Below the pieces are notes generated by a model, which saw only the letters and a list, made by a program, of their open reading frames with translations, did not search any database and had not been told where the DNA came from. A DNA stretch of 63,658 bases, the filler included, from Sphacelaria rigidula (taxonomy: Eukaryota), in assembly GCA_964200075.2 (NCBI GenBank). It is 3 parts of 3 records of this genome, joined end to end, with 100 filler letters (N's around TTAATTAATTAA, not from the genome) between each part and the next. Parts side by side here need not be neighbours in the genome. Positions count along the whole stretch, not along the records: positions 42,540 to 63,658 come from CAXNAA020000462.1; 2 more parts are not named here. One strand, written 5' to 3'. Both the position numbers and the translations under genes were made by a program. Below, in pieces: positions 22,133 to 57,400 of the stretch (position 1 is its first letter; every line of letters starts with the position of its first letter).

Positions 22133-22410
22133 TTCTTCACATTAAAAACCGTTCCGATATCTGCGCAGTACTCTGTACTGGGCATCTGATGCGGACGCCT
22201 TCCATGGTCACAGGCTAGCTACCCCGAGCTAGGGTAAATTAAACTCATAAAATATATAGGGGCTGGTAAACATCGTATTCTGCGGTATCGAAAACGCTTA
22301 GATGATACTCGTAGATCCCCCGATACTCCTGTTTGTAGGGTACCAGGCTTTTTCAGACAGAGTTGTAACATCGGTTTGTCGTGCGTGGCCCGTTTTTACT
22401 GTCTTTCCAG

Positions 22411-35600: not shown

Positions 35601-36387
35601 TGTCACCCCACCCTAAATTGGTATTTGCGTTTGCACATGATGCAGGGGTACCTTGCTTGTATCCCGAAACACCAGAGTGAGAGGTCGGGGGCTGTTCTTG
35701 ATTATGCCCTTTACAGTAACTGCCGACTCCCGCTCCACGCTAACCCCGTTGGCGGATACGACCACCATGTCGGGCTTGATCCTTGGTCGAGATGGGAACC
35801 AGTAACGGACGAAGAGGAGTAGTCGGTGACAAAATATTAGGGCCACGCATAACTCGGGGATGAGGAAACAAAAAAGCAAAATGAGGGTGGTCGATGATGG
35901 TTGTAAACAACCACGTTTGACCCATAGACAATCCCGTCGACAAAAGGAACCAAAATGCCGGAGTCATCGATGGTGATTCATCCAGAAGCAACGTCTGCTA
36001 TTTCTCCGCAATGATTAACAGCGGAGTTTGAGATACAAATTTTGCAAGCCACGCATACTCCTGGTACTACAATAAATAAACGTGACATATCATTCTGAGA
36101 AAAAAATGAGGGCTAAGCAAACAGGCAGCAACCAATATGCGGAAAAGGGAATTGGCAAGAAGTCGCTGACAAAAAGTATGAACAAAACGCTGAGCAAAAG
36201 TTCACGGGTCGCTTGGGTTTCTTTTCTTAGGCACCACTGAAATATTGCCCATGTGTATGTATCGATCGTGCTATCGTGCTCTTGCAAACGTGCTCCTTGT
36301 TCTGGCGTCTCACCGACTTCGGCTAGCTGCTGCTCCCCCTTGAACAACGCGCTTCACCAGGACCCGAGACGAGCCCTTATATCGTAC
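32608..36387 (-). CDS. FKBP-type peptidyl-prolyl isomerase with upstream PDZ-like segment; 5' exons not found
   Basis: Exons 36387-36314, 35781-35652, 35397-35284, 34524-34384, 32871-32608, all phase-compatible. FKBP motifs GDLLEIEYTGTLENGTVFDGS, GWDILLVGMCVGESRVISVPPVLGYG, VPPNATLLYDVKL. Confidence 0.9.
33478..33548. repeat. 11-bp minisatellite TATCATGTCA(C/G), about six copies
   Basis: Direct tandem units within an FKBP intron. Confidence 0.9.
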
Positions 36388-36480
36388 CTGCGCGCTCGTT
36401 CAGGAAGAGAAACAACCGACAATGCCGACGGCCATGGTGATAAGAACAGCAGCAACAATACATCGTGACAGTAACAATAT

Positions 36481-37562
36481 CACACCCTGTACAACTATGA
36501 CTAATAACTAACAAAGTTAGTTGTTTTGTCGACCAACTACCGGGTAGTTGTTTCCAAATAACTAGTTGCGCACGATTCTGAGAGATTAGATGTTTGGAAA
36601 CAACTAGTTGCACACGATGCTGAAAGAGTAGATGCTGAAAGAGTAGTTGTTCGGAAACAACTAGTTGCGCACGATTTTTGAACTGTGGTTGCTTGGAAAC
36701 AACTAGTTGCGCGCGAATCTGAACAATGAGTTGTTTGGAAACAACTAGGCGCACTCGATTCTGAACACGTAGTTGTTTGGTGGCCCGGGTAGTTGTCAAC
36801 ATCGTGAAACAATTACAATTAGACCGCTGGCTGAGATCGAGCTGGCGCATGAACATGTGAGCACCCCACGCACGTACTCACACACAAACACACACGAGAG
36901 ACCAAGCGCACCAAATGGCAGCTGTGCCACCAGCCGCCCCGAAACCAGCACCAGCTTCTCCTACACCAGCACCAGCAGCAGGTGGTGGCCAGCAAACGCG
37001 TTTGTGTCTCGATGTCGGAGGGGAACCGTGGTTGATCAAGCCAGTTTGAGGTGCCGCATACATGAAGCAACAGTAAAGCCTAAACCTTGAACGTGTCATG
37101 CTCGCGCCCCGAATGACGAATGCCTTTGCTTTGCATCACACCGTATACTTCTGTCTTTTCCTTTATCCAGGAATAGGTCCGCCTGATCTTTCTGGCTTAC
37201 TCCCTGTCCTGCGCGGATACGAGTTCACACCACTACTGTATAGCGTTTTCATTTGTTCCAACTATACTCAACCAAAGTTAGTTGCTTGTCGACCTACTAC
37301 CTGGACATTGTTTGGAAACAATTAATTGCACATGATTCTGAACAGATAGTTGTTTGGGAACAACTAGTTGCGCACGATTCTGAACAGTTAGCTGTTTGCG
37401 AACAACTAATTGCACACGATTCTGAACAGTTGGTTGTTTGGAAACAACTAGTTGCGCACGATTCTGAACAGTTAGTTGATTGGAGATAACTAGTTCCACA
37501 CGATTCTGAACAGTTAGTTGTTTGAGAAACAACTACCAACTGTTAAAGTTGTACAGGGTGTG
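36481..37562. mobile_element. 1.08-kb non-autonomous hAT element with 42-bp subterminal arrays
   Basis: 16-bp TIRs CACACCCTGTACAACT / AGTTGTACAGGGTGTG; TSD AACAATAT / AAAAATAT (7/8); arrays at about 36545-36780 and 37308-37535. Confidence 0.88.
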
Positions 37563-39018
37563 AAAAATATACACGAGAAATGGTCTGGAAAAGTGTACTT
37601 TTACCACACCCTGGACAATAGGCGGCATCTAGTGCAATAGCAATGGAATCTGCTGCAGTAGATACCAACATTGTGGTCCGTAATGACCATCGATCGGCAA
37701 GTTTCTCTTTCTTTTGTCGTTGGCAATATCTATCGATAGACCAGTTTCCCACACTCTTGTCTGGGCAGCAGTCTGCTGTGGCCCTGCACCGAAATCTATT
37801 GATGGCAACAATGACTATCGATAGACCGCGTGCCAAATCTATTGATGACGGCGATGACTACTGACGGATTGTATACCGAATCTTTCGATTACGGCAATAG
37901 CTATTGATAGATTGCGAATAAATCTATGCATGGCGGCAATGAATATTGATAGATACATATTAGAACCTACTGTGGTATGCAATGCCTGCCGATAGATGTT
38001 TTCTGTCGTCTATTGCACACCCTGGACAATAGAAGGCATATATTGGGGTAGCAATAGAATTCACCGTAATAGACGAGTATATTCTCGATCGTAGTGGCTA
38101 TCAAAGATGAAATTTCTCCGTCCGTTGCCCTGACCGTGTGTATTTACTCAAGAAAATAAATCCATTGCTGGTGACCAGGTGTATTGACAGGAAACACCGT
38201 AATCCATTGTCACAGACCATTTATAGTGATGGAAATTTGCGGAATCTATGGCGAACGACCATGTGTATTGATATATCTCGATGAGAACATCACCCAGCAC
38301 ATTGTTTCCAGCGATGGATATGGCCAAAGATATTTTGCAGTCATTGTTCTCCACAATAGATATCGACATACCTCCTTGTGTAGATTCTTTGGATGTGCAC
38401 ATCGCGCCCTACAGGGTGGGCGTCAATAATATGTACATGTGCCCATCATTTCCGACGAGTCGACGGCAGAAAAAACTGCTCCCCACAATAGATATTCACC
38501 CATTCTCTTATGTAGATTCTTTGGGTGGGCCATGTCAGGTCTAGCCAACACTGCATCCCGGCGATTAAGATCTCATTCACCAGCACCATATGCCGTGGAT
38601 ACGAAATAATATATATTATTATGTTAGCCCGCAGAAACCCATGGGTCATGGTCGCATGATAGATGTACCCAAGAAAAGCAAAACTGCAACACTCGTTCAA
38701 GAAAATGAAGGAGCGGAAAAAGGTCCGACATGCAGGATCATGTTTGCGTCTACAGATAGCGTCCGACAGGGCGCGTGCCGATAGTACGCACATGTTCGGA
38801 TCATTACCCACATGTTCATATTCTCGTCCTCTGTAATGTCAGTATATACAAGGGCACAAAAGGAAAACGATGGGGCACTTCGTCCTTCGTCCAGGACATG
38901 TCAACACATGCCATGTCTGCAGAAAAAAAGACGTTACATTTTTGACGGCCTGAACGCGTGCCAACCAACCCCCACGAAGCAAACAACGCAGGAGCACCGC
39001 AGTTTGACCACATTCATC

Positions 39019-39114
39019 ATCCTCCCCATGAGCGACAACGGTATCCTCCCCATGAGCGACAACGGTATCCTCCCCATGAGCGACAACGGTATCCTCCCCA
39101 TGAGCGACAACGGT
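39019..39114 (+). repeat. Perfect 24-bp tandem repeat, four copies
   Basis: ATCCTCCCCATGAGCGACAACGGT four times, encoding ILPMSDNG. Confidence 0.95.
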
Positions 39115-42100
39115 GAGCAGAGACCGTCCTCGGCTTCAGGCGCAGCTCAACCTGCCGCCCTTGCCCCCATATTTGATCTTCGGAACTCGGGCAGCGGACG
39201 TCGTTCCAAAGGCAATTCCAAACAGTTGAAATTTCCGGAAAACGTACCGATCGCAGTAAAGACGGCAATCAACAACTACATCCCGGCAGAAGGCCGCTAC
39301 GTCACACGCCCAAACGCACGAAGCCCTAGCGTCGTTCATTTTTGGGGCGTGCGGTTGGACACAAAGCCGGAAGAGGAGTGGAGCTACGACGAGAAGGGGA
39401 AGCCGGTCGAGAGGGAGCAGTTTTTTTCTTGCCAAGCAGATGAAGATTGTCGCAACAAAAGAACGATGATCAAAATTACGAGCAAGCAAACGTCGAGTGC
39501 TACGACCCATTTGGACAAGCGGCACAATATCGAAAGCTCCCGGACACAAGCTGCAGACGAAAAGTGAGTATGCCACCTTTTCCCGTTTGATTGTTCCTCA
39601 CGCCTAGAGGAAGTGCCAGTGGGTGCTTTACTGTAGTTGTTCGTTTTCGTTCAGTTTGTGCCCACACCATACTAGCCTGGCTGAGGCCCATGTGCTTGCT
39701 CTGTTCTGATGGCTTGCTTTGTTGGATTTTCATGACGTGGAGCATGCGACAAGCGTCCGGTTCAATCGTTTACTGCATATCCTGTGATGTGTGCGACTCC
39801 CGACTAATGCAAACGCCACGGTTTCATCGTCTCGCTATTTTCTGTGCTGTGTAGGGCGATCGAGGTCCAAAATACTCTGGAAGCGGCACGGAGTAGTCAA
39901 TAATTCCGAACAAATCCTCAACGATACTTGGCGCTTAGTTTCGTGAAGGCGTTTCCCATCCACATCGTTGCCCGTTTCAACATCGGGGAGCATGCTGCCG
40001 TTCGTTACTTCCTCTCGCTTATGCGGAAGAACTTCGACATTAGTGCCCTGACCAACAAAGCGGTAAGTCAGATATCTCCGGTAGTGATGTAGGCGTTCGA
40101 TCGGTTTCCTGCATTCATGTTCAAATCCCAGCGCGTCAATCACGGGATTTCACAAATCGGGGAGGGACTTTATATTGGGGTTGAGAACCCGTAGATACAA
40201 ATTTGCACTGCGATGACCGAAATGTTGAGGTCCTAGTTCAAAAACCAATTTTGGGGTCCGATCGGATTACCTGAATTCCCGAAAACCGGTTTTTGATCTA
40301 GGACCCCATCATTTCGTTTATCAGACTGCAGATTTGTATGGCATGTAGTAGTTGTCAATAGCCACCAGGAAGGGAAGATTTGGCGCGGATACGAAGATTT
40401 TAATCCTCCGGGTTGTCACCCCCGGTGAAAAATCGACCCCCAACTCGTAAAATCCTGTGTTGTTAGCTTTCTTGCCTGTAGCAAGTCGAGAGGCGGCTGT
40501 GTGTGCGAGCGAAATCTGCATATACCCTGGACAATAGAACATGTAATGGAACATTGCCACCGTAATAGACCCCGGAAAATGGCCGACAATGGCCATTGCC
40601 GGCGACAATAGACGCCTGCAGCTGTCTTTGAATGGACCTTGTCATCAACAAGATAATTGAGGTAGGAATCACAACGCATCGTTGTGGCGACAATGGACCG
40701 GTGGACTTCACCATTGATTGTCATTGTCCAATATAATACATCGCCGAAAAGCAGTGGCGATAGACATGTGTCCCAACAATAGTCCACTAAACCCGATTGT
40801 CGATAGCCATTGCTGCTGACGGTGGATATTAGCCCTTGACTGTCAATGTATATCCCGACTCGCGATAGACTGGTGACGTCATTTGTTGATAGCCATTGCT
40901 GTCAACGACCTGCTGGCGCAGTCGACTGTCGATAACCATTGTCATCGACAGCATATTGTTGGAGTCGGCCGTCGATGGCCATTATCACTGAGCATGTATC
41001 ACACCCCAACTTACAGTAGACAGTGGACTAGACCCCCATAATAGGCACGAGCTTCATTTCGCAGCGGAGCTTTGGCATTTAAAGAAGTGGACCTAGGACC
41101 CACCCCCCACTTCACCCCCCCCTACCCCCACCGACCCGCCCATCCCCCTCCTCCCCTCCTGGCCTCCTGACCTCCTGCCCCCCCCTCACTCATCCCGGAG
41201 GCTCGAAATATTTCATACGGTTTGTATTTTTTTCCTCTATCGCTGCTCCCTTTTCCACTCGTATCCTATATCGTCCGGATATATTATTTCCGTCCTACAC
41301 AACCACTTGCGTAATACACCTGCACTGTTCGTCGTGACTACGTTATGACGTGGTTCTTTGATGACTACAACTGATCACCAGGATTGGTTCTTGCTTACGC
41401 ACGGGACAATACGTCACAGGTAAAAAGGATGATGATCGAGATGTATGATGCAACAGTCAGCGACGCCAACGCATCGATGCAAAAGACACTTCGCATCGCT
41501 GACGTTCCTTTTTACGTCAACGCAGACTTATGGACGAGCAGAGTCTCCGGGCTCAAGTACCTCGGTGAGTTTTGGTGGGTGCTGGACTCATCACAGGGTA
41601 AGCCGTTGCCATCACATGCACGTTAATCCTCCCCGACTAGAACCCGTCTTGGAACCGGTCCTGCTTTCAGCACCCCGTCGTGACGATTCTCCTGTGTACT
41701 ACATTTTTGTATCGCCAACTATGTGAGGTTACCTGTTGTGCCGTCCCCGTTGTGTGAACATGATCCTGTATGCGACCGTCGTATGACACTTGACCTTGCT
41801 CCCCTATAAAGCCGTGACGAAGCACGCCGGGTTTTCACGGGCCCACGCTCGAGAGGGAGGGTAGAGACTCCCCGAAAGTGTGTGCCGCTTTGAGAGTCGC
41901 AACCTTCAGTGTTTTTGTGTTGAAGCGGAGGAGAGGATTTTTTACTGTGTGGACCACCAGCATCGCGGTTGTCGGTGCAGTATAACGACCGCACGAGTGG
42001 GGGAGAGAGAAGCGCTCAGCCGAGTCGACTTCCAAGAAAATTTTGCATCATAGCATATTACCATTGATCCACATCGCCGTTCCGCGCTCCTGATTTGCCT

Positions 42101-42415
42101 CGAATAGCTACAGGTGTCCTCGTTTTTGTCCTCGACCAAAAAATGGACGTGAAGACGCATCTCCTCGCGCTGAAGCTGTTTCGGCCTCATCGATCTTTTG
42201 ACAAGCACGGCGGTGACGTGATCTTCAAGTAGATCATACAAGTGCTGGCGTAGCATGGCATACGCGATGAGGATATCGCCGGCGCGGTGACGGATGCCGG
42301 ATCCGTCGTTCGGAGTGGGGTGGTGTCGGCTTGGTCTTGGGAATGGTGCTTTGCCCACCTCCTGAACCGCGCGACCATTGACGCCACGGGAATGTCGCCC
42401 GCGAAGGATCGTTAA
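39028..42415 (+). pseudogene. Intron-containing hAT transposase pseudogene
   Basis: Exons 39028-39563, 39855-40062, 41420-41564, 42114-42415. BED-like finger (SVVHFW..CQADEDC..TSSATTHLDKRH), ADLWTS..YLG, AVTDAGS, WCFAHLLN. In-frame stops at 39901, 42230, 42251, 42413. Confidence 0.92.
40141..40459. mobile_element. MITE-like insert in the transposase intron
   Basis: Imperfect TIRs CACGGGATTTCACAAATCGGGG / CCCCAACTCGTAAAATCCTGTG. No clear TSD. Confidence 0.55.
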
Positions 42416-42439
42416 AAAAAAAAAACCAGTGTCGTGAAC

Positions 42440-42539
42440 NNNNNNNNNNNNNNNNNNNNNNNNNNNNNNNNNNNNNNNNNNNNTTAATTAATTAANNNNN
42501 NNNNNNNNNNNNNNNNNNNNNNNNNNNNNNNNNNNNNNN
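42440..42539. other. Artificial contig linker
   Basis: 44 N + TTAATTAATTAA + 44 N. Confidence 0.97.
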
Positions 42540-42986
42540 GGCCCAACTCTAAATGTATAAAAGAGCATGGGCCTGCAAACTTCAAATCCGCCTCTAGGCT
42601 GTCCCAGCTCGTACGGCGGGAGGGTTTTCACAGCGTGTAGTTTTTGCCGTGCATCGTTTTGCTAACCGTTAGGATTTAGAGTTAAGGGCAGGATCCGTAG
42701 TGTATGAAGTATCACCTACGCACGGTACACTGTTTGGCTCGTCATTGTCATGACCTCAAGATTCTTCTCCTGCTGTACTGTATTATGACATGTAGGGTCT
42801 TTTGCCTTCTTCATCCTACGGCTGGACGATAGTTGTAGCGGGTACATGGGATGTTTGTCGTAAGTAGACAACAAGCCCTCAGCACACAGCAAGGAAACGT
42901 TCGCACAGAGGTTGTGTAACCGACCGGCACGTAGTAGCTGCGAGTAGCAAGTGGTCGTTATGTGACGAAATCGTTCCTGCTGACAG

Positions 42987-45276
42987 GTCACGGCGCCCGA
43001 ACTGCGCGGTGGAATGGTGATCAGCGGGCAGGATGCCGATTGCATGAGTCTTTTCTGCTCGAGCGACATCATGACCAAACTGGGTGAGCGACGATTTTGC
43101 GAGATGCACAAGGTGTGGGGTGCCGTGGTCCGATACCGCCGTGTACTGTCTTTCCATAAGCCTGTTGGGTTGCTGGATCAACCGGAACCGGTGCTACGTT
43201 GCACTGCTTTTAACGAATCAGGTGTCGCTGGTTACAAACAGAACTTGGATCACAGATTCTCTCCCTACCCAGTTGCTTCACAGTTTTTCATTCATGTACT
43301 GGATATCCACACTGATAGCCAGCTACAGCTACCTACCGCTACGCTGTTGAGCTATTGGCGGTACCGGACGGTAGTCAATGATTTGTCAGCGTACACGGCT
43401 ATGCTCGACAATACCATACCTCATGAGACTACTGTATGGCAAAACCAATTTGGAAAGGATCATCATATATAAGGATTATTTAATGCAGACGCATTGCATC
43501 TTGTCGAGTTGAAAAAGTTTTTTGAGAAGGATATTGTTGGTATGATACAGTAGTGCTCAGCTAATGCATTGTGAAGGAGTAGCGTATTGTCGATAAGCGC
43601 AACAGATGTGACAAGCTATATATCTGTATGGAACAAAGCAGTTGCCACTTAGTATGTAAGTGCTGCACATAGATATAACACTAGCATGCGCTGAATTGAC
43701 GCCTCCTTTGATAATATCCACGAAAACCCTTGAAAGATCCCGATCTTGGACGGACGAATGCATCCAGTTTCCAGCCTCGATGATCCTGACGGAACACCCC
43801 ACGTTTGCTTGCTGTTCTAATGTATCTGTCTAGGTGGTCACCCGGGAGCCATAGTGGCTGTTAGCAGCACCCTCGGAAAGCGACCTGAACAAGGGCGCCA
43901 CCTCCTGAGAGACGAGCACGACTACTTGGCCCACATCATACCGGCGCAGCTAAGCAGGTGAAGATGGCATACTTAGCGGCCTGGAAAGTAGCATGGAATT
44001 CTCTGTTTTGCTGAATATATACTTGGAAAGTATGCATACATCGCATAGTACATACCTGGTCGAGGTCGGTATGCTTTCCGCTTGGTCCTTCGGTATGCAC
44101 GACACACTTAAGGGGTGAGGTGTCTCGAATATACCTTGCTTGATGTTGATACAGTCTCTTTAAGCGTTTCTTCACCCAATGCTATAGCAGGAATGACCCC
44201 AGTTGTGTGCAGACTGTCATCAGCAAATTGTCGATGGGTATCGGACGTTGGGCGTGGACGCTTATGCCAGTCGGCAGACGCAATAGTCAAGACATCTCAG
44301 TGGTGCCGCGATAGTCCCCCCTCCCGAAAGGGCGAGAAAACTGTCGCGAAGAAATGGCCATACAGTGCGCCGAGATGATTGATGATGGCTGGTTTCAAAA
44401 ACCAAGAGTTGAAGATTATATTGAAAAATGCAGATATAGCTGGTTGTAGAAACCACCTTTGAATTTCATTTCGAATGCAGTCACATCCGTTTTCAGAAAC
44501 AAGTAGGGCTCTTGACGTTACACGTCATAAAGTTCGTTGCACGTCACAAGTTAAGCCAGGCTAGTACTACTGTGGGGGCTACGTGGTCCCCCACCGTAGT
44601 ACTAGCCAGGCCCGACGCTTAGTTTTGTTTGACTTGACTTTACACAGGGCTGCGCGTGTAAGGAATTTTGTGACGTGTAACGAAATTTGTGACGTGTAAC
44701 GAACTTTGTGACATGTAACGTAAAGAGCCCTGGAAACCAGTTGTGAATATTTTTTGAAAGAATGCAGATATAGCTGGTTTCAGATGCCAGATCTACACAC
44801 CTCAAAAGAAGACTTTGCCTCGGTCCCCGTTACATTTTTCTGGGGCGGGCTACCGCGGCATCACTCCTATTACATGGATTCAGTTTGGTGAGCTTTTTGC
44901 AATTACCCTTCGTATCGTCTTCGAAATTTAGGCTCAGATAATGTAGCAGTCTGCACATGAACGAGATTCCATTCATGTTCAGCGTTCAAAGATGATTCTA
45001 GAATGCTCATTTTCGTGATGTGATCGGGGGTACGTACAAGAGTAGATAACATGATGTCAAGTGGCTGGCTTGTCGGGGGTTCGTTTTTTTTTGTCCTTTC
45101 GGATAAAAATGCTCCAATGTATTCTATATATTGCGCTGAGATTGTTATGGAATCTTCGCTTGATGCTTGCGTGACCTTATGATAAACTGCCACGCCGTGT
45201 CTCTACCAAGCCAGATATAAGCAGCTGGACGAAGACTTCGTGAAGCAGCATCAGGATTCCCCGCAGGAGCCAAACG
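42987..45276 (+). CDS. Tentative upstream exons of the SH2 gene, with a STAND-like GxP motif
   Basis: Exons 42987-43083, 43834-43957, 44191-44237, 45211-45276 are open and phase-compatible with each other and with the exon at 46227. Spliced protein includes DIMTKLG|GHPGAIVAVSSTL. Confidence 0.5.
44504..44732. mobile_element. 229-bp hAT MITE
   Basis: TIRs TAGGGCTCTTGACGTTACA / TGTAACGTAAAGAGCCCTG; TSD GAAACAAG / GAAACCAG (7/8); internal inverted repeat GGCTAGTACTAC...GTAGTACTAGCC. Confidence 0.88.
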
Positions 45277-46226
45277 GTGAGGTCCTTTTCAACCATCACT
45301 TCTGGGACTAGGGAAGCAGTCAGTGCAGAGTGCCCCCCGCACACAGACAGGGGAGATTGCACCCGCGAGACATAGCAGCACAGTAAAGGACGAGATATAG
45401 GTGTGCGCACTCGGAAGTTTGAAAGACCAGCGGAAGACGAGGTCTGTGTGTTAGCGCACTGGATGGGTCGAGGGTACTTGCCCCTGTAACACAGACGGGA
45501 CCTTTATCTGATCTCGCTCGTCGGTGACTCAATAGCGGTGCAGTAGTTTTACTTGTTATACGCTGCTGTTATTGTCCGCGACTGAGTCGGAAGCTTGCAT
45601 ACCCTGGACGAAAGAATACACAGTCAAAAAGCGCACTGCGTACAGTATCGACTGTTGCGCCTGTTGCAACAGACAATATCTTCCATCCTGCACGCAGTAC
45701 ATTTTTTGACAAAATAACCTCTTGTCCAGGGCGTGAAACTTCGCACGAGAAGGAACGTCTTCCATGCACCAGGTGAACAAGTTTGTTGACCTTCGTCTCT
45801 TCTTGAAAGTCGGAACGTTCACGTGGTCCAGCCAACCGCTTCGAAGACCCACCTTACGTGGTTGTCAATACTATCTGGAGGGAGAACGATGTTTGCGACA
45901 GTAGTGCAGTACGCATACAAGTACAAATGTCTCGTGACTTTTATACCGTCTGCCAATTTTTGACAGTATTCGTGGAAACGCTTTCTCGGTTGTTCTGATT
46001 TCTATTTTCCCACGAGCTAGATGAAGGCAGGACCCAGAAATGAAAGAACTGCACGTCGATGAGGGAAAAGAGGCGGGGGGAAATACTCGTTATTTGAGTC
46101 GCAGTATATGTTATTCATACATGGAGAAGGAATTTTTCTTTGCCCTTCTAGTCCTACCGCCCAGACCCACCTGCCTGCCTTCCTATATGCCTGCCGCCCC
46201 ACCTACTCGCCTGTGCTTGTTGCCAG

Positions 46227-49200
46227 GTGGAAGAGCGACGTTTGCGATAGAAGTGGAATGGAGCTGGCCTCGACCAACGAGGTACAACGTCAGCTCCGCG
46301 GTCGGTGCAGCACCGCCATCCGTGCACGTGCCCGTTGCCTCGTCTCTGGGAGAGCGCTTGTGGAACCAGGCCGTGGAAAGGCACGTGGGAGTGGGTGCTA
46401 CGTCAAATACGCTGCCCTGGAAAGCGCTGTACACTTTCAGCTTGGCTGAGCACTTTCTGTCAGTGATGGGAGACGATGGGAGATACAGACCATTGCAGGT
46501 CAGGCCAAACATCGCATGCCGTTCGCCTCTAATGTAGTGGTGTTTGATGTGTGTGTTTGTTTTCTTGTTGTGTTGTGGTCGTTGATATTTGAGAGTTTCG
46601 GGTGTGCTGTGCGCTGCGGTGATGTTACAACCCATAAGAGATCGGCGCGCTTGGAGGGTGCATGTACCACCGCGCGTTTTATGTTGGTGTTCCTTTGAGG
46701 CGTATCCTCCGCAAAAAGCGGGCTAGGGTGAGGAGGAGATGCACCGCTGAACAAAAATCCACTCATCTCGCAGTGAGTGAGTGCACGTAGGTAGGTAGCA
46801 CTACCTGTAAATGAACGTCTTATGCGCATGTCGTAGCTCCGAATAGCATTTTGATTGTGCTGTTCACGACTCTAGTCCTCATTGTGTCAAGATGGTACCT
46901 GTCATGCGAGGTCATCCTGGTGGGCGGCAGATCTCCCCCACGAGGATTTCAAGGGAACACTATTGCTCATTTTCATGTGATTCCCTCCTCCCTCCATCCG
47001 AATCTGTCTCGATTGAGTGACATTTGCCCTGTATGTGGTGTACGGGGTGCTTTGTATCAGGAGATCGTCCCCATGTATCCAGTATGGATCACGTCGTGGT
47101 GCACCGCTCTTCGTACCACGTGTGAAATCCGGTGCACCCTGTGGCAGTCAACAAACATACGCTGACAGGAGCAGGCGACTGACGGGCCGCGCCTGTGTCG
47201 CTTGCTGCGGCTGTCGGGCGTTAGCATTTGTCCAGTTCTATGCATTTTTTTTTCTGTCGAAAATGTTCTGAAAATGGCGTGCAGTATAATCACTACCTTC
47301 ATGTATCCTCACTTTAATCGGGTGAGGGGTCGTCAACTCGGAACATTTTTTGTACCAGGGACAAGCGAAGAAAGCTAGGCAATGCGCTTGGGGTACGTAC
47401 GCTGTATTGGTGCACTCGGTGCGAGCGAAGCATGCCGTACCGATGTGACCCTTCACTAGCTTTGAGGGACGCTTAACAAAATAATAATGCGCCGCTTGTT
47501 TGATGCTGCTCCTCTCAGGACGAAGACTTCCAGACTCTCGGAGAACACGAGCAACTGTGGAAGCCGTGGGCTCCGCCAGCGACCCAGCCGAACGGAATAG
47601 TGAAACAAAAAGCGTTCTTGGGCAAGTTTTGGGCTTGGTTCGAAGCACTGACGATCATGCTCAAGGTGCGTGCGCCTTGTTTCTGTGGCTGGCGTGTTTT
47701 TTCTTGGTGCAAAGCGTGACCGAAGCGTAAACGTTTTGCTGCAAAGTGTGACCATGTTGACGGGCAGCATGAGCCATATCACCATATTGAGATCATTTAT
47801 TTCTCGGGTTCCTCGTTGCGATATTTTCCGGTCCTCTATGTATCCTATGACCACGGCCAGATTCCAGCGGATGAGCTGATGTTAATGTGCGACAATTAAT
47901 CAGTGCATGAACTGCCATGCAACCAACCATTTCTACTCCAGGAGAGGCCGTTTGACACGGGTCTAAAACACGAGAGACAGCCCGTGTAGACATGAGCATC
48001 GAGACGTTTGGGGCGCTTTAACGGCGTAAACAGTAAGTACATTCACCATGAGGGACTGTAGCGCGGTCGGTTACCTACAGCCGAATTGAAAATCTTGGGA
48101 GATCATGAGTTTGCAACGTTTCGAGGGTAGGTGTCCCGCATGGTGTCTGGTAGGGTGTGACGGGTAAGGGCCATACAGTATCCAAAAAGCGAGCATTTTA
48201 GGATGCTCTTTTTTTTTATTTACGGTATCACCATCAGACGTGATATTTGATGACAATTTTCGGGGATGAATACAATGTTGACATGCAACACAAAGACCCG
48301 AAGTAACTCCATTCTCACGGTCAGTTCATGACCACTTATGGGCGTACGTACTGGTCGTCGAGGGTCACACCCATTGACATACCTAGGTTTGGACTCTTTG
48401 ATGTTTTTAGTCGATCCCCCGATTGTTCTGGTGGACAACTCTCCTCTACAGTAGTAGTTCATCAAAAATCGGCGATTTCGTAATTTTTTTGCGCGGTCGG
48501 GGATACTCGACAAGTGTTCTCGCGTGACACCGCTCATCCCAGTCAGTGAAAGTTTGATCCCAAAGTTTGGAGATCGGGAAATACTAGGCATCCCCTTCAC
48601 ATTCCGAAATAAGATCGCATCTGCACTCAGTTTCGAATGACTTGCGGGCTGACCGGTTTTCGGGGGTCCTGCGACTTTCCAGCCCCAGTTTTGACCCCTG
48701 AGTATTTTTGCTCAACTGAAGCAATCCCAATCGTTTTCGTGGACAAATGAAGAAGAATGATTTTTCTATCACTACCTATTTATTGCGCTAGAGCCAAAAA
48801 AGTGTGTTTTTTGGACCAGTGACAGTCGGTAACACACCCCTGATAAAGGAAGTAGTTACTCCTTATCACCCCGACAACACCAATTGAGAATTGCGTTTTG
48901 AGCATGGTCTGCTTCTCTTCCAAAAATATATCGACGCTAGGACTTTCGAGTGCCAGGGACAGGTACTACACGAGAAAATCCAGAGAAGTACCCAAGAACG
49001 AAGATTGCCCAACAGAGCTCTGAACAGCACAGGCGGGGATGAATCAATTCCGATTACTCTCATAAATGATCTTACGGACTCCTACCTTTTTTTTTACCTC
49101 TTCATCGCGCTAGAGGCGAAAATAAATGTGTTTTGGACCAAAAACGGCCAATAACACCCGCTGTCAATTCAGCACGTGAGTCGATATTGAGCGCAGAGAC

Positions 49201-52200
49201 GATTGTTGTTTCGGAATGTGGAGCGGATAATTAGTATCTCCCGATTCCCAGACGTCAGGATCAAGCGTTCACAGGAATGAGCGGTGGCACGCGGAAAAAG
49301 TCATTGAAAATCGCCGAGTGCGAAAAAATGACAAAAATCCCCTGCAGTATTTCACATGAAAACTACTGCCGCCGAAAAGCCGTCTTTTTGGCTGACATAT
49401 TACGACGGATGAGATGTCCGTTTCATTTTGGGAGGAGCATGACGAACAACACAAATTTCCGGCCTCAGGCCGCTCCTTATGGCAGACAAAAATAAAAGAT
49501 CTGGAAAGTGCCTTTTTGGAGCTTTTGCGTCGTTTTACGCCCTGAAAGAAAGCTAGGCGGATTTTGACACCTTGGATTGCTTTGCTGTACTCGTTGAGAC
49601 GGTCTCAGCACACTTGTGCGTTTTTATCGTGGTCGCAGTTTTTTTTTGCCCAAACTTGCATTTTTCACGGAGACGGGTCATTTTTGTTGGAGATCGGTCA
49701 AGTCCAGACAAATCTCGGAATTTTTCCTGGACTTGACCGGACTCCAACAGAAATACAAGTTTGAGCGAGAAAAAAACGGCGGCCGCCGGAAAAACGAACA
49801 ACCGGTAAAAGCCCGTGCGTCGTTCTAAATTGACCGTGGGAATAATATTAATTTCGGAATTTGTGTACTGTAGTGTACGCATATATTTGTTGCCTCAAAA
49901 TTTGGCCCACAAACGAACGGCTTTTGAAATGTTTGCTCTGTGGGGTAGGTGGTCTGAAAACGTGTCGTGTCCGAAGGACTGACACCGCCCTGTTCACCGT
50001 GCAACACAAGGGTGAAATCTGCACACCCTGTGCCAGCTTGGTTTGCATACTCTCTCCGCCGCCCGTCACATTCGCATACGCGTATCCCCCTGTGCCAGCT
50101 TGGCCACAACTGTATAGGAGTGAAGTGTATCTGTACCGTTTCATCTGCATGTGCATGTGCCGTTCGCTTTCGCAGCACACGGGGCATTGGGGGAACCGGA
50201 ACTACCCGGTAATTTGCAGCCTCACCACGATTACCAATTACGATGGCGAGGCGCTGCTGCGGGGAAGGCCGCCGGGGACGTTTCTCATGCGCGTGAGCGC
50301 AAGCAAGAACGGGACTCTGGTGATCATGTATGTCGACCGCCGTAAAGAGGTAAGTGGAGACTGCCTGCCTGCCTGCCATGCGTTATAGTAATGAAACTTC
50401 AAACATGGTATTCACTCAATGTGGGGATTATTTCACGAACGACTTTTCACCTTCACTCGAGAGTTTGGGAGTCGGTAGGCGCTGGATGAAGAAAGCAGGT
50501 CGTGCTCAGGACATATTTCCCAATTTTGTGTTGTCGGAACGATGCGGAGTAAAACCAGTTTTGTCGAGGGGGTATTATTTACCGTATACGGCCGAAAAAC
50601 ACGTTTTTTCGGTTTGAGCGCAATCGATATTAAGAAAATAGGGAAACAGAAGACATAGTATTGTGCATTATAACAATTCGGATTGGTTCGGTTGAACGAA
50701 AATATTGAAGAGCGAGGACCGGGGGCCGTACACTTGTAGGACCCCCAAAGACTCGTGAGCCCGTATTTCGTTCAACATTTGCCGTAGATTGTATTTTCGC
50801 TCTCGAAACTTGTGTCGGGCACCTATTTCTATCGATTCTCGAAGGTTTGCGATCAAGTAGAAACCGTTATGAGTTTTGGTAACCGAAAAACCTGAAAAAA
50901 TCGCTTTCAATCTACGCGAACGCGAAGTTCGAAGTCTGGCTAGTGTTTTGTGTTCGCTCTCTCAGTCAAGAGGTGTGGTTGCCTTGCGTGAGAGCGTTTT
51001 GTGTTTCATTTCGTTTTTCAACCAACTTCGGCAGGATTCAATGTGTATTTTCATGTTGCATGCGGGTAGTATTAGCCGCCACGAGTCGATAAAGTACACG
51101 AAGTATCGTGTGGCGACACCAAGATATGTGTCACGACAAAATGTGTCGAACGGTATAAAAGACGACAGTGAGAATCTGTGGCATGGTGAATAATCGTGGG
51201 ACATGGGACGGTTCTCCAAATATTTCCTTGACCTTAGGTTTACCGTTAGCGCTGACTATTTGGTCTAAGCGCGGTTGAACTGACTGCCATTTATCAACCG
51301 ACGCAAAGCGCAAGTGTGGTTGTTCTAAGCTTGTGAGAAAATTGTCGTTATTTCAAGGGACAAGTCTCACGCTGGGCTCGCTGCCATTTCAGCGTACTCT
51401 CATTGCTGGAAGTTGCATGTCATGCAATGGATGCCATACTGTACTGGTGTTCGTGTCGCGCTCTTGCCGAGTTAGCTCGCCGCTAACTCGTGAATGAACC
51501 GTCCTGCCCGAACTTTTCGGTTCCCAAATAGCGTTCCCAGGGTCTCGTTCATTATCGTTTGGTTTCTGTATCGCGTCCCTACCTAGTACCTGGGGCTATG
51601 CGGCCGGAGCCTCACGTTTTTTTACTTCTCGGGGCCGCTACTAGTGCTGTACTTGATCTATCTTACCCTGGCGCTTGTCTTGTTCTTGTGTTTTCCGATC
51701 CTTTCTTCTTTTTTTTATTTGCTCGCTTTGTTTTCATCTTCCTTTTTCGTAGTCTGTCTTTCCCCTTCATAAAGTTCCCTTCCAGCGAGTTGTTCCGTCT
51801 GTTTACCTTGGTTACGTGTATCTTATGGATACCGACCACGAGTGGGTGGATCGGCACCGGATGAGTTGATATTAATGTATGATAGCCAACCGCTCCATCA
51901 ATCCAATCAAAGGTCTGCTTTTTATGACCACCATTACGATAAGTGGAGCATGACCGTATCGGAGGTGCAGTCACTCAGCGGAGTTTCATGTGTGTGCAGA
52001 AAAAGCGACGCGGCTCTTGCAAGCATGCATGTAGCGTATATATAACTATAGGTTGTAAGTTTAGCCCGACGGCTAGGTACTCAGCAACATCTGTATCAGC
52101 GAGCGTAAATTGCGTTTAATTCATTCGGCGTTTTCGCTGAGGGCATCTGACCTCGATATTGTGAGAGACGGGGGTATGAATCATTGCAGCGTAGTGACAA

Positions 52201-53276
52201 GGGGTTCGAGTAGAACTCACCACGCCGGCGCATTTGATGTACCTCACGGGATTTCACGTAACGGCGCCACAATCTGAGGGACACGGTACCCGCAGACGCA
52301 AACTTGGAGAGGGGCAACCGAACTGGAGCTGCTTGATTTCACCATACACTTCCAACATGATATCTACATATATATATATATATATATGTGTGTGTATCCC
52401 GTTGTTTCATGTGGAGTAGGGTGTGCACAGCCTTGACCTCACGAGCGTTGTGGTGTGTAAGATTTTTTATCTGCATTCGACACGAGGCGAATTTCGTAAC
52501 ATATAATGGCGCTCTGGTGTAACACCCTCGACCAATGCAAACGTACGTTTACTTCTGAGTTTGCGCTGATAGGGAGCTACCAGACGCCAGCGTTTGCAGC
52601 ATCGGCTCCGGGTGCGTTTTCTGTCGTCTGTCATGTAGCACGAACCTTGTCACACACCGCTCTCCAAGATTGCGCAATAGAGCACACTGTTCTATACGAG
52701 ACAACTTCATACACACAGGGTTCCTTCGATACTGTGTAAGCGCGATACTACTCCTAGTCTGCGTCTGCAGACGTCCACTCTCTTGTTGAGCTGCACTTTT
52801 TGAAGCGAGTAAGACCGTCCGGGGTTCGCTCACACCCTCTGCCTTGATTTATATTTTTTCCCTTCAAGGAACAAGGAAATCCGACTCCACACTCACCCCG
52901 CAATCGCTTCCTTGATGGGCGCGAGTACCCCAAGTGGTGCCCCATCAAATACTCTACAATCATGTAACTCAACTACAAAATAGTATCGTCTTTTTTTAAT
53001 GCTCTCATGCACACAACGAAGTTGGCTCAGCATAAATACGCTAATCAGCCAAACCCTTACGCCCCACCGCCCAATTATCGCTTGGACACGACGTGAGAAA
53101 TACAGGTGGTGAGTGTCCCAACGCAAGTGAACAAGAAGGGCAGGTTCCAAGCGGAGGAGACCGCACCCGACGGGAAGCATGTGCGCTTCAGCGCCGCGCT
53201 GGGCGATCTGGTCCGTCACATCTCCCTTTTGACCCATTTATTCCCGGACACCCCGAAGCGAATAGCTCTAGCGTAG
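46227..53276 (+). CDS. STAT-type linker + SH2 domain protein, C-terminal exons
   Basis: Exons 46227-46498, 47519-47665, 50176-50349, 53106-53276 with phase-0 junctions. Protein: LPWKALYTFSLAEHF..RPLQ|DEDFQTL..GKFWAWFEALTIMLK|HTGHW..EALLRGRPPGTFLMRVSASKNGTLVIMYV..LGDLVRHISLLTHLFPDTPKRIALA*. Confidence 0.88.
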
Positions 53277-54473
53277 GGATTTTATCGTGCTACCCCAACA
53301 CCCTGATGGCGGCAATGTGGCTGATTTTTCGACTCGGCGCCATTCATCGTTTGATAAATTAGTCAAGTTCTGTTCGTCGCCTCTGTTCAGAGGTCATTTG
53401 TGTGAAGTTGGGAGGATCCAGAAGCGACGGTAAGGTAGATCCACGCGCGAAGATGACATGTCTGCAGCAGAGGATTTGCCGGGCTGTGTGTACTGCACTT
53501 GCGTGGTACTGTGTGTACCTTGAAAATATATACTTTCTTGCTGTTGTAGAGTAGTAGAGAGTTGAGGGTGCACTGTAGCGCTGCCCTTCGGCTGCACGCT
53601 ACGGCGCATATGCTGAATAGCTATGCCGTAGCCACAATTACTTCGTCGGGGTCCTCGTGGTCGTCTGCAGCCGTTGATCTGTTTCCCGTACACGAGTTTG
53701 CTCCAAGTTCGGAGATGGGGTACATGTTGAGACCGCGATCATCTTCCAGCGCACGTGAAATAAGCGCAGGTCTTGTATATAGGCGCTCCCTTTTTGTTCG
53801 CGTTGGATTCATGAAGTCGGTATCCCTGAAGATGTGAGACAATGGGCTTTTACGTGGTGTGCACTTCCGTTTGCCGCGGGATATTTTGTCGCTCTTCACA
53901 GCGCCCCCCACGCCGAAATGAGTCGACCGCTTCGGCGAATTTACATAGCATTGCTATCGTATAGTACAGTGCAGAGTAGCAGTGAATTCCCAAGGTGATA
54001 AAGGAGGCCAAAGCACGAATGGTCAAGTATTCACTGGTAGCTGCCGACACACATCATATTCTCGCCCCTTCATGTGGATGCCTCGAGGACGCTTGTCCAA
54101 CCTCTCCCTGGGCTGTCTGATGAGGCAAAAGCCTGATGACAAGAGAACGCTCTTTTTTTTTTGTCCCTTTTGCCGCGAACGCCGAGACATCGACACAGTA
54201 GAAATACCCTGTGGCGCTTTACTGAAACGCCCCCGCCCAACCCCCATACAAACATTTTGACCTGTGATTTCATGCGTACAATATACTCCGGTGTACCGAG
54301 CAACTCAGCACCAGCTCGTCGGGTGTTGCCTTTATATCTCTTGCAATTTCTCCCATTACACCGGCGGTATTGCTGGCGTTTCGCTGTATCCTATTATGGC
54401 ACCGCGCTGTGATATCTGACGAGACTTGTGCTCTATGTCGAATCTCTGAACGAAGATACGAACACCTCCTCCT

Positions 54474-57400
54474 TCACTCATCAGCTAGAGGACCCCGGCC
54501 TTCACTGACTATTTTCCAACTGATCTCTTCGCCAGCTCTGAGAGGCACCACTTTAGTTTGCCCAAACGTGTACGATGCGGGCACCTTCCATGCCTGTTTG
54601 GCAACTGTCACTGTTTCTTCATTGCGGGGGATTCCGTAAAAGTCGGCGCCATGGTGACCGCAGAACGCCGCTAGCCTGCCGTCACGCGGATGCCAGCGGA
54701 ACGAAAAAGCAGTTGGATCGGTGACGTCAACGATATGCGTGCCTGGTTGGAGGCAGTGCAACGCTCAGAACTCGTGAAATATTGAGGGCTTGAAATACCC
54801 AACACGTCAATCTCCCAATCTCCCCGTGTCGGTACTATCGTACGATTGGAAGACGACAAAAACTGGATCCTGGCAACGGAGCGGGGGTGGAGGAATTGCC
54901 TGTCTTGCACTTTTACCACAGAGCCCTGCCATAACCAACGGTGCATTTACTATTTGCTCAGCGACAGACTCCGTGATCGTGCGCTAAATCAGGGGTTCGC
55001 TTTCATACAACTTTCAACGCTACGCTCGCACGGGAGTACCATATATTATTCACATCTACCGTTTGCAGCCTTGTGGCAGTACTGTAGGCGTAAGACTACT
55101 GGCAGCGCCACGAACCTGTCCAGAGCTCCCTCGTCGTCGAAAACTTGACAGTACAGCTCCACGGCGGCGTGACCAGTGAAAATACCGGCGCACCCTGAGA
55201 AAATAAAACGATCGGACGAATGTACCGTGGAGGGTTACTTACTACACGAAAAAAAAGGGCGTGAAGCTGGAAGAGTGTATGTGCGGTGCGAAGCATCTAC
55301 TATTGTTAATGCCTCGATAAAACTTCACAACGTCTTGTGAACATACGGTGTCGAGCTTTTAATCAGGCATTCATGGATTGACCCCTACTCTTCTCCATGC
55401 CTGTCAGTCGGGAAAACGAAAACACATCCGGGGCATCGTGGATACTTTTCCAAACGCAATCACATACGTGGTACAATATGTAAGACTCTCGGCTGTGGAT
55501 GTGGGCACTCGAGTTTCACTGAACTTGCATTTTTGCTCTCCATCCTTCGGTCGCGATAGCTGTGGCGCCCATCTGATATCGAATGCCGTGGTGTTTGGTT
55601 GCGTGTGGAAATGTTCGTCCAGTAGTCGCGAAAAGGTCGCTGGCGACCAGGCTATCGTGCTCATGCAGCGACACCGGAGAGATATCACGCAGTCAAGTTA
55701 CGCCTACTACCTCCGGTCCTGCACATACCATGCCCCATGGTTCCACTCGCAAGATTAAGTATACACCTTGCTGTTGAAGGCATGTTGCACGCCGCTAACC
55801 TCGCCTAATTAGAGGCTACGCCCCGCGATTGCGATCGATCTGAGGATGGCACTGGTCCGTCCCACTGTGCAAAACAATGCACCACTGCCAAGCCGCTGCT
55901 CACCACACGGTGCAATCTTGGCCTCTTGCGCATGAGGTGCACTATCCGTACCCAAGAAGAATTTGGGGTTTCCGCTCGTAGCTGCCTTAACTAGTGCTTG
56001 CCGATGCTCCTCGCGCTTGAGGACGGGGAGGCAGTACATGTGCGGTCGGATTCCTCCCTGGCCAGAAGTATAACAAGAAACACCGCAGTGTGGACGGGAC
56101 ACTCAGTAGCAATAACAGGATATCGACATGAGATAAAACGAGAAACATGCAGCAACAGCAACAAGGTATCGAATTTCGGGGGCTTCGAAGCACCGATCAA
56201 ACAATTCGTGTCACGTTCAAGCTCATGCGGCGTTAACATGTGTCGAGGGCGACGCTAAAAAACAGGGACCAAAAGTAGAAGAGAACTCCATCGATGGCAA
56301 AGTGTACAGTGTGCCGTTGTACTTTGTAGAGTATTATATAGTCAATGGATGTTTTTTACAGTAGTATGGCAACTACTGGTATGAAGTTCTCACCGTACCA
56401 CCGCGCGCACGACAAATGTGCTGTACTTGTGCTGTTTACTACTACATGGACGGTACAAAAATAGCCAATACAAGACGCATTGTACACCGAAAGCCGGTCG
56501 CTCAGGTGGCTCAGTGGGTAACCCCGAAATCTTCCAAGCGTGTGTTGGGTGGGGTATTTCCTACATTGGGGTATTTTAAAAAGTTGTTCTCATGTATGTA
56601 CCCAGATATTGGGTAGAGTATTGCGATCGTACCTACCTCTGCCCAAATATCTGACAAGAGGTTGGAGATCGGACCATCGTAAGGTAAGATTCGGGAGAGT
56701 AAGTATCCGGATGTTTACCCTTCCCAACACACCGTTGAAACCTTCTGATGGCTGGGACGTGGATTTGAATCTCCGTGAAGTCATACAAGCTGGGATTTTT
56801 CTTCATATTATGCCCAATCGTGGAGAGCGACCATGTCGTGAGTACACAACGTACGACTTCACGGTCGACGAGGAAAAGGGGCCGCCGAACCCTCCTCGTA
56901 ATAAAAAGTAAGGCAAGCAAAGCAGAAGGAAAGTGGAGTGCTAAAAACAAATTAAAAATGAAAACATTTCTCCTGCGTAACCCCGGCTGATGCGCCCGCA
57001 TATAGCGAACGATGTACACCTGCATCCAGGATAGCTGGGATGACAGCATACACATCAAAAACATATCTCATTATACTCAATCGATGATATTTTCTCATTC
57101 GCTACTACCAACCTGTACCCTGACACAATAGCGTGCATATTACAGTGGGTACAAGACATGTGGCATGAGGAACGGGTGAGAAAAAGCTTCGCTGTAAAAC
57201 TCGTTAGACAGTACTGGTAGATTATCTAGAAACCCTGTCCTTTTCTGTCATTTCAGATTGTAACTGATTTGAATACTTTTCATTTCTCGAGAAAAAAAGA
57301 CACAAATGGGTACGCCACCACTTGTTTCAGCCCAAACATAGGTACAGGTAACCGCCGCAAGTTGGAGCTGTCCGTGCTAGGCCCAAACCATTGGAAAATC

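What the first reader, a model, noticed from the sequence alone, without database searches (positions are those of the whole stretch)
46227..53276. STAT-type linker-SH2 protein lacking the phosphotyrosine tail
Seen: four exons splice into a continuous match to the STAT linker-SH2 pattern (PW..L..HF..RPL..D...FW.WF...K...W, GTFLMRVS, L..LFPD.PK). The phosphotyrosine-binding Arg of the FLxR motif is intact. The protein stops five residues after PDTPK, with no Tyr after the SH2 core. Known: animal and Dictyostelium STATs dimerise through a Tyr just C-terminal to SH2, and plants have linker-SH2 proteins. Inference: this is a phosphotyrosine reader in an alga-like genome that cannot dimerise the canonical STAT way, and no STAT DNA-binding domain is recognisable upstream. 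The ORF track shows only fragments of it.
Basis: partly seen in the sequence, partly recalled or inferred. Interest (0 to 1): 0.75.

Follow-up and report, generated by a model that had tools for sequence, protein, structure and literature searches.

The report
Tail-less STAT-like SH2 reader gene
A real, spliced and transcribed gene ends in an SH2 phosphotyrosine-reader domain preceded by a conserved segment that resembles the core of STAT proteins, but its front half lies outside the window, so whether it is a true STAT relative stays open.

Summary
A DNA run shows none of these joints. The frame stops at 53274-53276, five residues after PDTPK, and has no Tyr after the beta-C strand.

The four exons are only the 3' part of the gene. 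Three more exons lie upstream in the window (42987-45276). A further 1.1-1.26 kb of transcript lies off the contig, which starts at an artificial joint at 42540. So "no DNA-binding domain upstream" is untested.

SH2 identity is solid. Pfam SH2 matches 15 of 15 family fragments, and the exon-3 profile hits only SH2 chains in the PDB (best 9e-7). The FLxR arginine is intact, but the alpha-A arginine is Asn.

The roughly 105-residue pre-SH2 segment is conserved with P0019, a protein made of three such units (0 of 2000 shuffles). P0019 weakly matches STAT6 from the last linker helix into SH2 (E 0.024) and matches SOCS3 slightly better. No Pfam STAT or Cbl model hits, and both structure predictions failed.

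Verdict: a new member of a known kind, a tail-less linker-SH2 protein as already described in plants. STAT membership is plausible but unproven.

The parts
42440..42539 (.). Artificial contig joint (N44-TTAATTAATTAA-N44). The gene's contig starts at 42540 and its 5' exons lie off it.
   Evidence: DNA and RNA contigs have loose ends at 42543-42614.
42987..43083 (+). First exon visible in the window (97 nt). The frame is open from the acceptor, and the transcript continues upstream off the contig.
   Evidence: joint 43082->43833 and a loose end before 42985 in X1-X3. CAG acceptor and open frame; the 30-letter loose end is absent from the window.
43834..43957 (+). Exon (124 nt)
   Evidence: joints, GT..AG.
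45215..45276 (+). Exon (62 nt)
   Evidence: joints, GT..AG.
46227..46498 (+). It holds the end of an unassigned region and, from about 46334, the first half of the conserved pre-SH2 ('linker') segment.
   Evidence: Linker homology to P0019.
47519..47665 (+). It holds the second half of the pre-SH2 segment, including FWAWF + 7 residues + K.
50176..50349 (+). It holds the N-terminal half of SH2 (alpha-A, beta-B with GTFLMRVS, beta-C).
53106..53276 (+). It holds the C-terminal half of SH2 and the protein end LFPDTPKRIALA.
53277..54674 (+). Transcribed stretch after the stop: the 3' UTR of unknown length, overlapped by the 3' end of a convergent minus-strand gene.
   Evidence: contigs run 53104-54674, then a CT..AC joint to 55115..

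Best explanation
This is the 3' part of a real, transcribed, multi-exon eukaryotic gene. The last ~220 residues of its product form one conserved module. A ~105-residue segment, probably all-helical, precedes a 114-residue SH2 domain that ends the protein. The module most resembles the linker-SH2 core of STAT proteins. Shown: the splicing, the open frame, the SH2 identity, the intact phosphate-binding arginine of FLxR, the conservation of the pre-SH2 segment and the conserved early stop. Inferred: the SH2 docks the protein onto phosphorylated tyrosine on other proteins. Because there is no tyrosine tail behind the SH2, it cannot form the reciprocal tail-to-SH2 dimer of animal and Dictyostelium STATs. 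It would therefore act as a recruited reader or adaptor, as proposed for plant STAT-like proteins. What it does after docking depends on the roughly 130 unassigned residues in the window and up to about 400 more that are not in the window.
For: - **Splicing and frame:** one search shows six GT..AG joints in 3 of 3 RNA-like runs and 0 of 1 DNA run. Searches show that the seven exons give one open frame of 348 codons plus stop.
- **SH2 identity:** exon 3 scores 19.9 bits against Pfam SH2, and homologue P0017 scores 31.2 bits against a cut-off of 21. 15 of 15 family fragments match SH2 at E<=10. The exon-3 profile hit 70 PDB sequences at E<=1; all 60 shown are SH2-bearing chains, led by p85 at 9e-7, with STAT3 at 1.5e-3.
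- **Pre-SH2 segment:** scored alone against the unit-1 linker of P0019 it reaches 59, against 26.7 +/- 4.4 for shuffles (0 of 2000 reach it). An HMM of the three P0019 linkers ranks the real segment first of 2001 (10.2 against 7.8 bits).
- **STAT likeness:** P0019 against the PDB gives 5 STAT entries among 8 hits at E<=0.05. The STAT6 alignment starts in the last linker helix (F.FWQWF...) and runs into beta-C. The window protein has FWAWF with the same spacing of 7 residues to a Lys.
- **Conserved end:** exon 4 aligns with the C-terminus of P0017, 0 of 2000 shuffles reach the score, and the two stops are three residues apart.
- **Not Cbl-like:** the pre-SH2 segment shows no likeness to the Cbl-like EF-hand-SH2 protein P0038 (z -1.3).
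Against: - **No linker-model hit:** no Pfam STAT, Cbl or EF-hand model matches the linker exons, the upstream exons or P0019, even at E<=10.
- **Single exons silent:** exons 1, 2 and 4, and the C-half of P0017, find no STAT or SH2 chain in the PDB.
- **SOCS3 scores best:** the best PDB hits of P0019 are SOCS3 (E 0.002), ahead of any STAT. The SH2 C-half has a GRF strand pattern, as SOCS3 does in that alignment. From recall, STAT-type SH2 domains lack that strand.
- **Weak support from other units:** units 2 and 3 of P0019 are not individually significant against the linker (z -0.4 and 1.2).
- **No structure test:** both models failed (pLDDT 52.5 and 33.6), and Foldseek gave no match at E<=0.001.
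- **Weakened pocket:** the alpha-A arginine is Asn here, while 12 of 14 homologues have Arg. This may weaken phosphotyrosine binding.
- **Unknowns:** the N-terminal part of the protein and the organism.
Confidence: 0.55

Rival explanations
1. It is the C-terminal half of a complete STAT-like transcription factor. The missing 5' exons, and perhaps the ~130 unassigned residues in the window, would encode a coiled coil and a DNA-binding domain. Only the tyrosine tail and transactivation end would be absent.
For: - The RNA contigs extend 1144-1261 nt further upstream than the window shows. That allows a total of up to about 770 residues, which from recall is STAT-sized.
- The residues just before the linker include strand-like stretches (ATFAIEVEW, SVHVPV) where a STAT would have the end of its DNA-binding domain. 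This positional reading rests on recall, not on a test.
- The weak STAT matches of P0019.
Against: - Pfam finds nothing in the three upstream exons or the start of exon 46227-46498.
- Part of the extra transcript may be 5' UTR or an assembly chimera.
- P0019 repeats the linker-SH2 unit three times without any DNA-binding domain between units.
Confidence: 0.2
2. It is an SH2 adaptor unrelated to STATs. The conserved pre-SH2 segment would be a lineage-specific helical extension, comparable to the extended SH2 subdomain of SOCS proteins or the EF-hand of Cbl. The STAT-like motifs would be convergence or chance.
For: - SOCS3 is the best PDB match of P0019, across the whole SH2.
- p85, Grb2 and SOCS4 outrank the STATs for the exon-3 profile.
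- There is a weak Cbl_N3 hit on exon 3 (E 0.1).
- Other protist hits of the same search are Cbl-like EF-hand-SH2 proteins (P0038: Cbl_N2 + SH2).
- No STAT model hits.
Against: - The protein ends five residues after the SH2, so no SOCS box or RING can follow.
- The linker shows no likeness to the Cbl-like P0038, P0032, P0033, P0036 or P0045 (z <= -0.4).
- No Cbl_N2 or EF-hand hit appears, and no calcium-loop pattern is seen in the four aligned linkers.
- The only PDB alignment that reaches upstream of the SH2 is to STAT6.
Confidence: 0.2
3. The SH2 reads phosphoserine or phosphothreonine, or an unphosphorylated ligand, as Spt6-type ancestral SH2 domains do, in an organism that may lack tyrosine kinases.
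For: The alpha-A arginine is replaced by Asn. Passages of PMC8331091 and PMC3507883 describe doubt about phosphotyrosine binding by plant and Spt6 SH2 domains.
Against: The FLxR arginine and the following Ser are kept. There is no Pfam SH2_2 (Spt6-type) hit. It is a single SH2, not a tandem pair. The transcript is too short for Spt6.
Confidence: 0.07

Closest known systems
STAT transcription factors of animals and Dictyostelium (PDB STAT6 5d39/4y5u, STAT5B 6mbw, DdSTATa 1uur as matched)
   Same: An SH2 with GTFL.R.S follows directly on a conserved helical segment ending in F.FW.WF. The family member P0019 aligns colinearly with STAT6 from that helix into beta-C. The C-terminal ...P....K..(A/V)(F/L) ending of the SH2 also matches, though that part of the comparison is from recall.
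   Different: There is no tyrosine tail or transactivation region: the protein stops five residues after PDTPK. A coiled coil and DNA-binding domain are not shown. No Pfam STAT model matches. The SH2 C-half has a strand pattern more like SOCS or Src-type domains.
Plant STAT-like proteins (STATL; Gao et al. 2004, seen only as cited in passages of PMC8331091, and PMC3670131)
   Same: They are linker-SH2 proteins without the conserved STAT phosphotyrosine site and with a poorly conserved DNA-binding domain. Whether they read phosphotyrosine is debated.
   Different: No plant sequence could be obtained, so orthology is untested. The exon-3 search listed none of them at E<=0.001.
P0019 (909 aa, JGI 'hypothetical protein')
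   Same: It shares the same linker-SH2 unit, with significant likeness in the linker alone and in the SH2 C-half (units 2 and 3, z 5.6 and 3.8).
   Different: It has three tandem units separated by spacers with repeated YG(I/T)M-type tyrosine motifs. The window protein has one unit and no such motifs after it.
SOCS family SH2 (PDB SOCS3 2hmh, 2bbu, 4gl9)
   Same: This is the best-scoring solved SH2 for P0019 across the whole domain (E 0.002).
   Different: There is no room for a SOCS box, because the protein ends with the SH2.
Cbl TKB module (four-helix bundle, EF-hand, SH2) and the Cbl-like protist proteins noted earlier in this scan
   Same: An SH2 preceded by a helical domain. Exon 3 gives a weak Cbl_N3 hit (E 0.1).
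   Different: There is no Cbl_N2 hit, no likeness to the Cbl-like P0038 linker and no RING.

Membership tests
SH2 domain (Pfam PF00017) | Match to the SH2 profile | tested here: met
   Exon 3 alone (half a domain) scores 19.9 bits, E 7.7e-4, just under the 21-bit cut-off. Homologue P0017 scores 31.2 bits. 15 of 15 family fragments match at E<=10. The exon-3 profile against the PDB lists only SH2 chains among the 60 shown, best 9e-7.
SH2 domain (Pfam PF00017) | Phosphate-binding arginine of the FLxR motif (beta-B5) | tested here: met
   GTFLMRVS in exon 3. The Arg is invariant in 15 of 15 aligned sequences.
SH2 domain (Pfam PF00017) | Second basic residue on helix alpha-A (alpha-A2) | tested here: not met
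   It is Asn in the window protein (ITNYDGE), Arg in 12 of 14 homologues and Ser in P0007. Placement of this position rests on the SH2 consensus as recalled.
STAT family | Linker domain directly before SH2 | tested here: inconclusive
   A conserved ~105-residue pre-SH2 segment exists, and P0019 aligns with the STAT6 linker end (E 0.024-0.05). No Pfam model hits and no structure was obtained.
STAT family | Tyrosine phosphorylation site just C-terminal to SH2 | tested here: not met
   The stop comes five residues after PDTPK. There is no Tyr after residue 286 of 348. RNA contigs run colinear through the stop.
STAT family | DNA-binding domain and coiled coil N-terminal to the linker | not testable with these tools
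   Only about 130 residues upstream of the linker are in the window, and they have no Pfam hit. At least 1144 nt of transcript lies off the contig, and no genome is held.
Plant STATL (linker-SH2 without the Tyr site) | Sequence relationship to the Arabidopsis proteins | not testable with these tools
   No plant STATL sequence was retrievable. The architecture, as described in passages of PMC8331091, is compatible.
Cbl TKB | EF-hand domain (Cbl_N2) before SH2, RING after it | tested here: not met
   There is no Cbl_N2 hit at E<=10. The linker against the Cbl-like P0038 gives z -1.3. The protein ends with the SH2.
SOCS | SOCS box after SH2 | tested here: not met
   Only five residues follow the SH2.
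Spt6 | Tandem SH2 at the end of a protein of more than 1400 residues (length as recalled) | tested here: not met
   It has a single SH2 and no SH2_2 hit. The longest RNA contig is 4489 nt, including at least 1.4 kb after the stop.

The most novel reading that the evidence does not exclude
The gene and its relatives define an undescribed family of linker-SH2 proteins in poorly annotated eukaryotes. The relatives are the 14 exon-3 fragments, P0017 and the three-unit P0019 with YG(I/T)M tyrosine motifs between its units. The family would be sister to the STAT core, and the unseen N-terminal half of this member would carry a STAT-type DNA-binding domain. That would place a near-complete STAT architecture, minus the tyrosine tail, outside animals, amoebozoans and plants.
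Probability: 0.12. Interest if true: 0.7.

Novelty: new member of a known kind. Interest (0 to 1): 0.4.

Why it matters
SH2 domains outside animals and amoebae are few, and how phosphotyrosine is read in lineages without dedicated tyrosine kinases is unsettled (passages of PMC8331091). The linker-SH2 unit has been proposed as the seed from which STATs grew (passage of PMC3670131). Here such a unit is expressed and conserved, sits at the very end of a protein, and has only unannotated relatives. It would help date that unit and offers a simple test protein for phosphopeptide binding. Its value is limited because the organism and the N-terminal half are unknown, and because plants already supply the tail-less precedent.

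Tried and rejected
- **RNA runs:** no RNA holder was listed by the look-up of sequencing runs. The runs used are labelled 'RNA?, a guess'.
- **Genome:** no genome is held for the window.
- **Read laying on 35500-55499:** It was rerun on 42540-55499.
- **Upstream exon:** the 30-letter loose end is not in the window at up to 2 mismatches.
- **Word-index searches:** exon 1 'longer' found only the window's own ORF. Exon 4 'near' had no candidate. P0019 'near' found only itself and a low-coverage hit.
- **Exon-3 representative search:** 49 proteins at E<=0.001, 50 rows listed. 14 rows are family fragments. At least 13 are bacterial proteins that are chance matches, mostly CarboxypepD_reg-type repeats (P0002, P0014, P0016, P0020, P0022, P0024, P0025, P0027, P0031, P0034, P0035, P0046, P0049). 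11 rows were not checked.
- **Collection scans:** nothing in metagenome contigs, genome contigs or viral contigs. One search failed for lack of a conserved stretch.
- **Single exons against the PDB:** nothing relevant.
- **AlphaFold2:** P0017 gave pLDDT 52.5 and P0019 gave 33.6. Foldseek on the P0017 model gave no match at E<=0.001; most of the top rows are SH2 chains but none is significant.
- **MAFFT through the tool:** it could not place exons 1, 2 and 4 on P0019.
- **Spliced protein:** it could not be sent to Pfam, PDB, HHpred-like or folding tools, so whole-module profile and fold tests are missing.
- **Papers not held:** Liu and Nash 2012 and Liu et al. 2011. Gao et al. 2004 was not read. 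Supplements were not consulted.
- **Literature searches for algal or stramenopile STAT-like SH2 proteins:** nothing specific.
- **Rejected readings:** pseudogene or chance ORFs (open frame plus spliced contigs); Spt6 (single SH2, short transcript).
Full report
**What is in the sequence**

The window is not one piece of DNA. Two spacers of N44-TTAATTAATTAA-N44, at 21176-21275 and 42440-42539, join three contigs. The finding lies on the third contig, which starts at 42540.

Every border is GT..AG. Every junction is in phase. The stop TAG sits at 53274-53276.

**Transcript evidence**

The look-up of sequencing runs listed no run on record as RNA. Four small runs of one study were labelled 'RNA?, a guess'. 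Three of them (X1-X3) were laid with one DNA run (X5) on 42540-55499.

- In 3 of 3 RNA-like runs, one high-depth contig (depth 164-288) skips exactly 46499-47518, 47666-50175 and 50350-53105.
- The DNA run has 0 such joints and covers the introns.
- The introns carry only low-depth contigs (about 2-7) in X1-X3, as expected for precursor RNA.
- The same contigs run colinear through the stop codon, so no assembled isoform adds a further coding exon.

This is one study, and contigs cannot show strand or level.

**The gene is larger than the finding**

The same contigs carry three more GT..AG joints upstream. These define exons 42987-43083, 43834-43957 and 45215-45276. All seven exons give a single open frame of 348 codons plus stop.

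Before 42985 every RNA contig continues with letters that are not in the laid stretch. The 30-letter loose end is absent from the whole window. From the record coordinates, 1144 to 1261 more nucleotides lie upstream. Up to about 400 further residues are therefore unseen. The statement that no DNA-binding domain lies upstream was never testable from this window.

**SH2 identity**

- Exon 3 alone (half a domain) scores 19.9 bits on Pfam SH2, E 7.7e-4.
- A search of 1.84 billion representatives with exon 3 found 14 ORF fragments from unannotated assemblies with 52-63% identity. Their likeness starts and stops at the exon borders.
- At least 13 other rows of that search are bacterial proteins that are chance matches, mostly of the CarboxypepD_reg repeat type.
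- All 15 family sequences match Pfam SH2 at E<=10, best 2.3e-7.
- Their profile hit 70 PDB sequences at E<=1, and all 60 shown are SH2-bearing chains: p85 at 9e-7, Grb2, SOCS4, STAT3 at 1.5e-3, STAT1, STAT6.
- The FLxR arginine is invariant. The alpha-A basic residue is Arg in 12 of 14 homologues but Asn in the window protein.

**The C-terminus**

Fragment P0017 reads through a short intron and contains both SH2 halves. Its C-terminal part aligns end to end with exon 4 (score 89 against 20.8 +/- 4.0 for shuffles; 0 of 2000 reach it). It stops three residues later than the window protein. The last Tyr of the 348 known residues is residue 286, in strand beta-C. The early stop is thus a conserved feature and not an accident of this copy.

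**The segment before the SH2**

Pfam finds nothing in exons 1 and 2 or in the three upstream exons. Single exons find nothing relevant in the PDB.

One hit of the exon-3 search proved informative. P0019 (909 aa, JGI 'hypothetical protein') contains three tandem copies of a unit made of about 110 residues plus an SH2. The spliced protein, computed inside scripts only, aligns with these units from its residue 135 to its end.

- Scored without the SH2, the 104-residue pre-SH2 segment reaches 59 against unit 1, while shuffles give 26.7 +/- 4.4 (0 of 2000 reach it).
- Units 2 and 3 are not significant alone (z -0.4 and 1.2).
- Ten other SH2 proteins, among them the Cbl-like P0038, give z <= 1.9.
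- An HMM of the three P0019 linkers ranks the real segment first of 2001 sequences (10.2 against 7.8 bits).
- Shared positions include W near the start, LPW, L..F, RP, D...F, KP, AF..F..WF and a W before helix alpha-A.

**Is that segment a STAT linker?**

Against the PDB, P0019 gives SOCS3 first (E 0.002, SH2 only). STAT5B, STAT6 (three sequences) and Dictyostelium STATa follow at E 0.02-0.04, so 5 of the 8 hits at E<=0.05 are STATs.

The STAT6 alignment is the only one that reaches upstream of the SH2. It pairs AFSEFFEWF... of P0019 with GF-TFWQWF... of STAT6 and runs colinearly into beta-C. The window protein has FWAWF followed, as in STAT6, by seven residues and a Lys.

This is suggestive but weak. 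No Pfam STAT, Cbl_N2 or EF-hand model matches P0019 at E<=10. The SH2 C-half looks at least as much like SOCS3.

Structure prediction did not help. P0017 gave pLDDT 52.5 and P0019 gave 33.6. Foldseek gave nothing at E<=0.001. The low-confidence P0019 model draws four helices before each SH2, which fits either a STAT linker or another helical extension.

That control was negative.

**What it most likely does**

The module is a phosphopeptide reader at the extreme C-terminus of a protein of up to about 770 residues. With the FLxR arginine kept, phosphotyrosine is the likeliest ligand. With no tyrosine behind the SH2, the reciprocal dimer of canonical STATs (established knowledge, recalled) is excluded, although a tyrosine elsewhere in the unseen half is not.

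The plant STAT-like proteins, described as lacking the conserved Tyr sites and a well-conserved DNA-binding domain (passages of PMC8331091), are the nearest described precedent. A passage of PMC3670131 states the idea that linker-SH2 is the seed of STAT evolution.

**Novelty and limits**

No annotated full-length relative appeared in any search. The organism could not be named, so 'alga-like' stands unverified. The whole-module profile and fold comparisons that would decide STAT membership could not be run, because the spliced sequence cannot be handed to those tools. I rate it a new member of a known kind, with moderate interest.

Noticed in passing
window 21176-21275 and 42440-42539: Two N44-TTAATTAATTAA-N44 spacers show that the window is three contigs joined artificially. 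Features must not be linked across them.
   Followed up: yes
window 53300-55200, minus strand: A convergent neighbour gene. It has a minus-strand GT..AG intron at 54676-55115 and a last coding exon ending with a stop at 54474-54476. Its 3' end overlaps the transcribed stretch after the SH2 gene's stop, and RNA contigs merge the two. No Pfam hit for the 96-residue frame.
   Followed up: partly
P0019 (909 aa, from the protein collection): Three tandem linker-SH2 units with spacers that carry repeated NP.YG(I/T)M-type tyrosine motifs. These are possible internal docking sites for its own SH2 domains. It is the only full-length-looking relative found.
   Followed up: partly
window 22302-26700, plus strand: Exons of a choline/ethanolamine kinase gene on the second contig (Pfam Choline_kinase, E 1.1e-15 and 1e-3).
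   Followed up: partly
window 38785-39567, plus strand: A 260-codon open frame with four tandem ILPMSDNG repeats. Its C-terminal part reads to me like a BED/hAT-type zinc finger, with a transposase-like frame at 41375-41626. Pfam gave no hit at E<=0.01.
   Followed up: partly
window 42540-42971, 44268-44699, 45564-45995, 49452-49883: Intronic or flanking stretches with summed contig depth of 8,000 to 124,000 in the DNA run, against about 70 elsewhere. These are high-copy repeats, and the contig ends in one of them.
   Followed up: no
window 21857-21929, minus strand: Rfam calls a tRNA (38.9 bits), but ARAGORN finds none.
   Followed up: no
one search hit list: A 58-residue SH2 half-domain query draws many bacterial CarboxypepD_reg/SdrD repeat proteins at E down to 2e-19, through summed weak repeats. 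This is a trap for short SH2 queries.
   Followed up: yes
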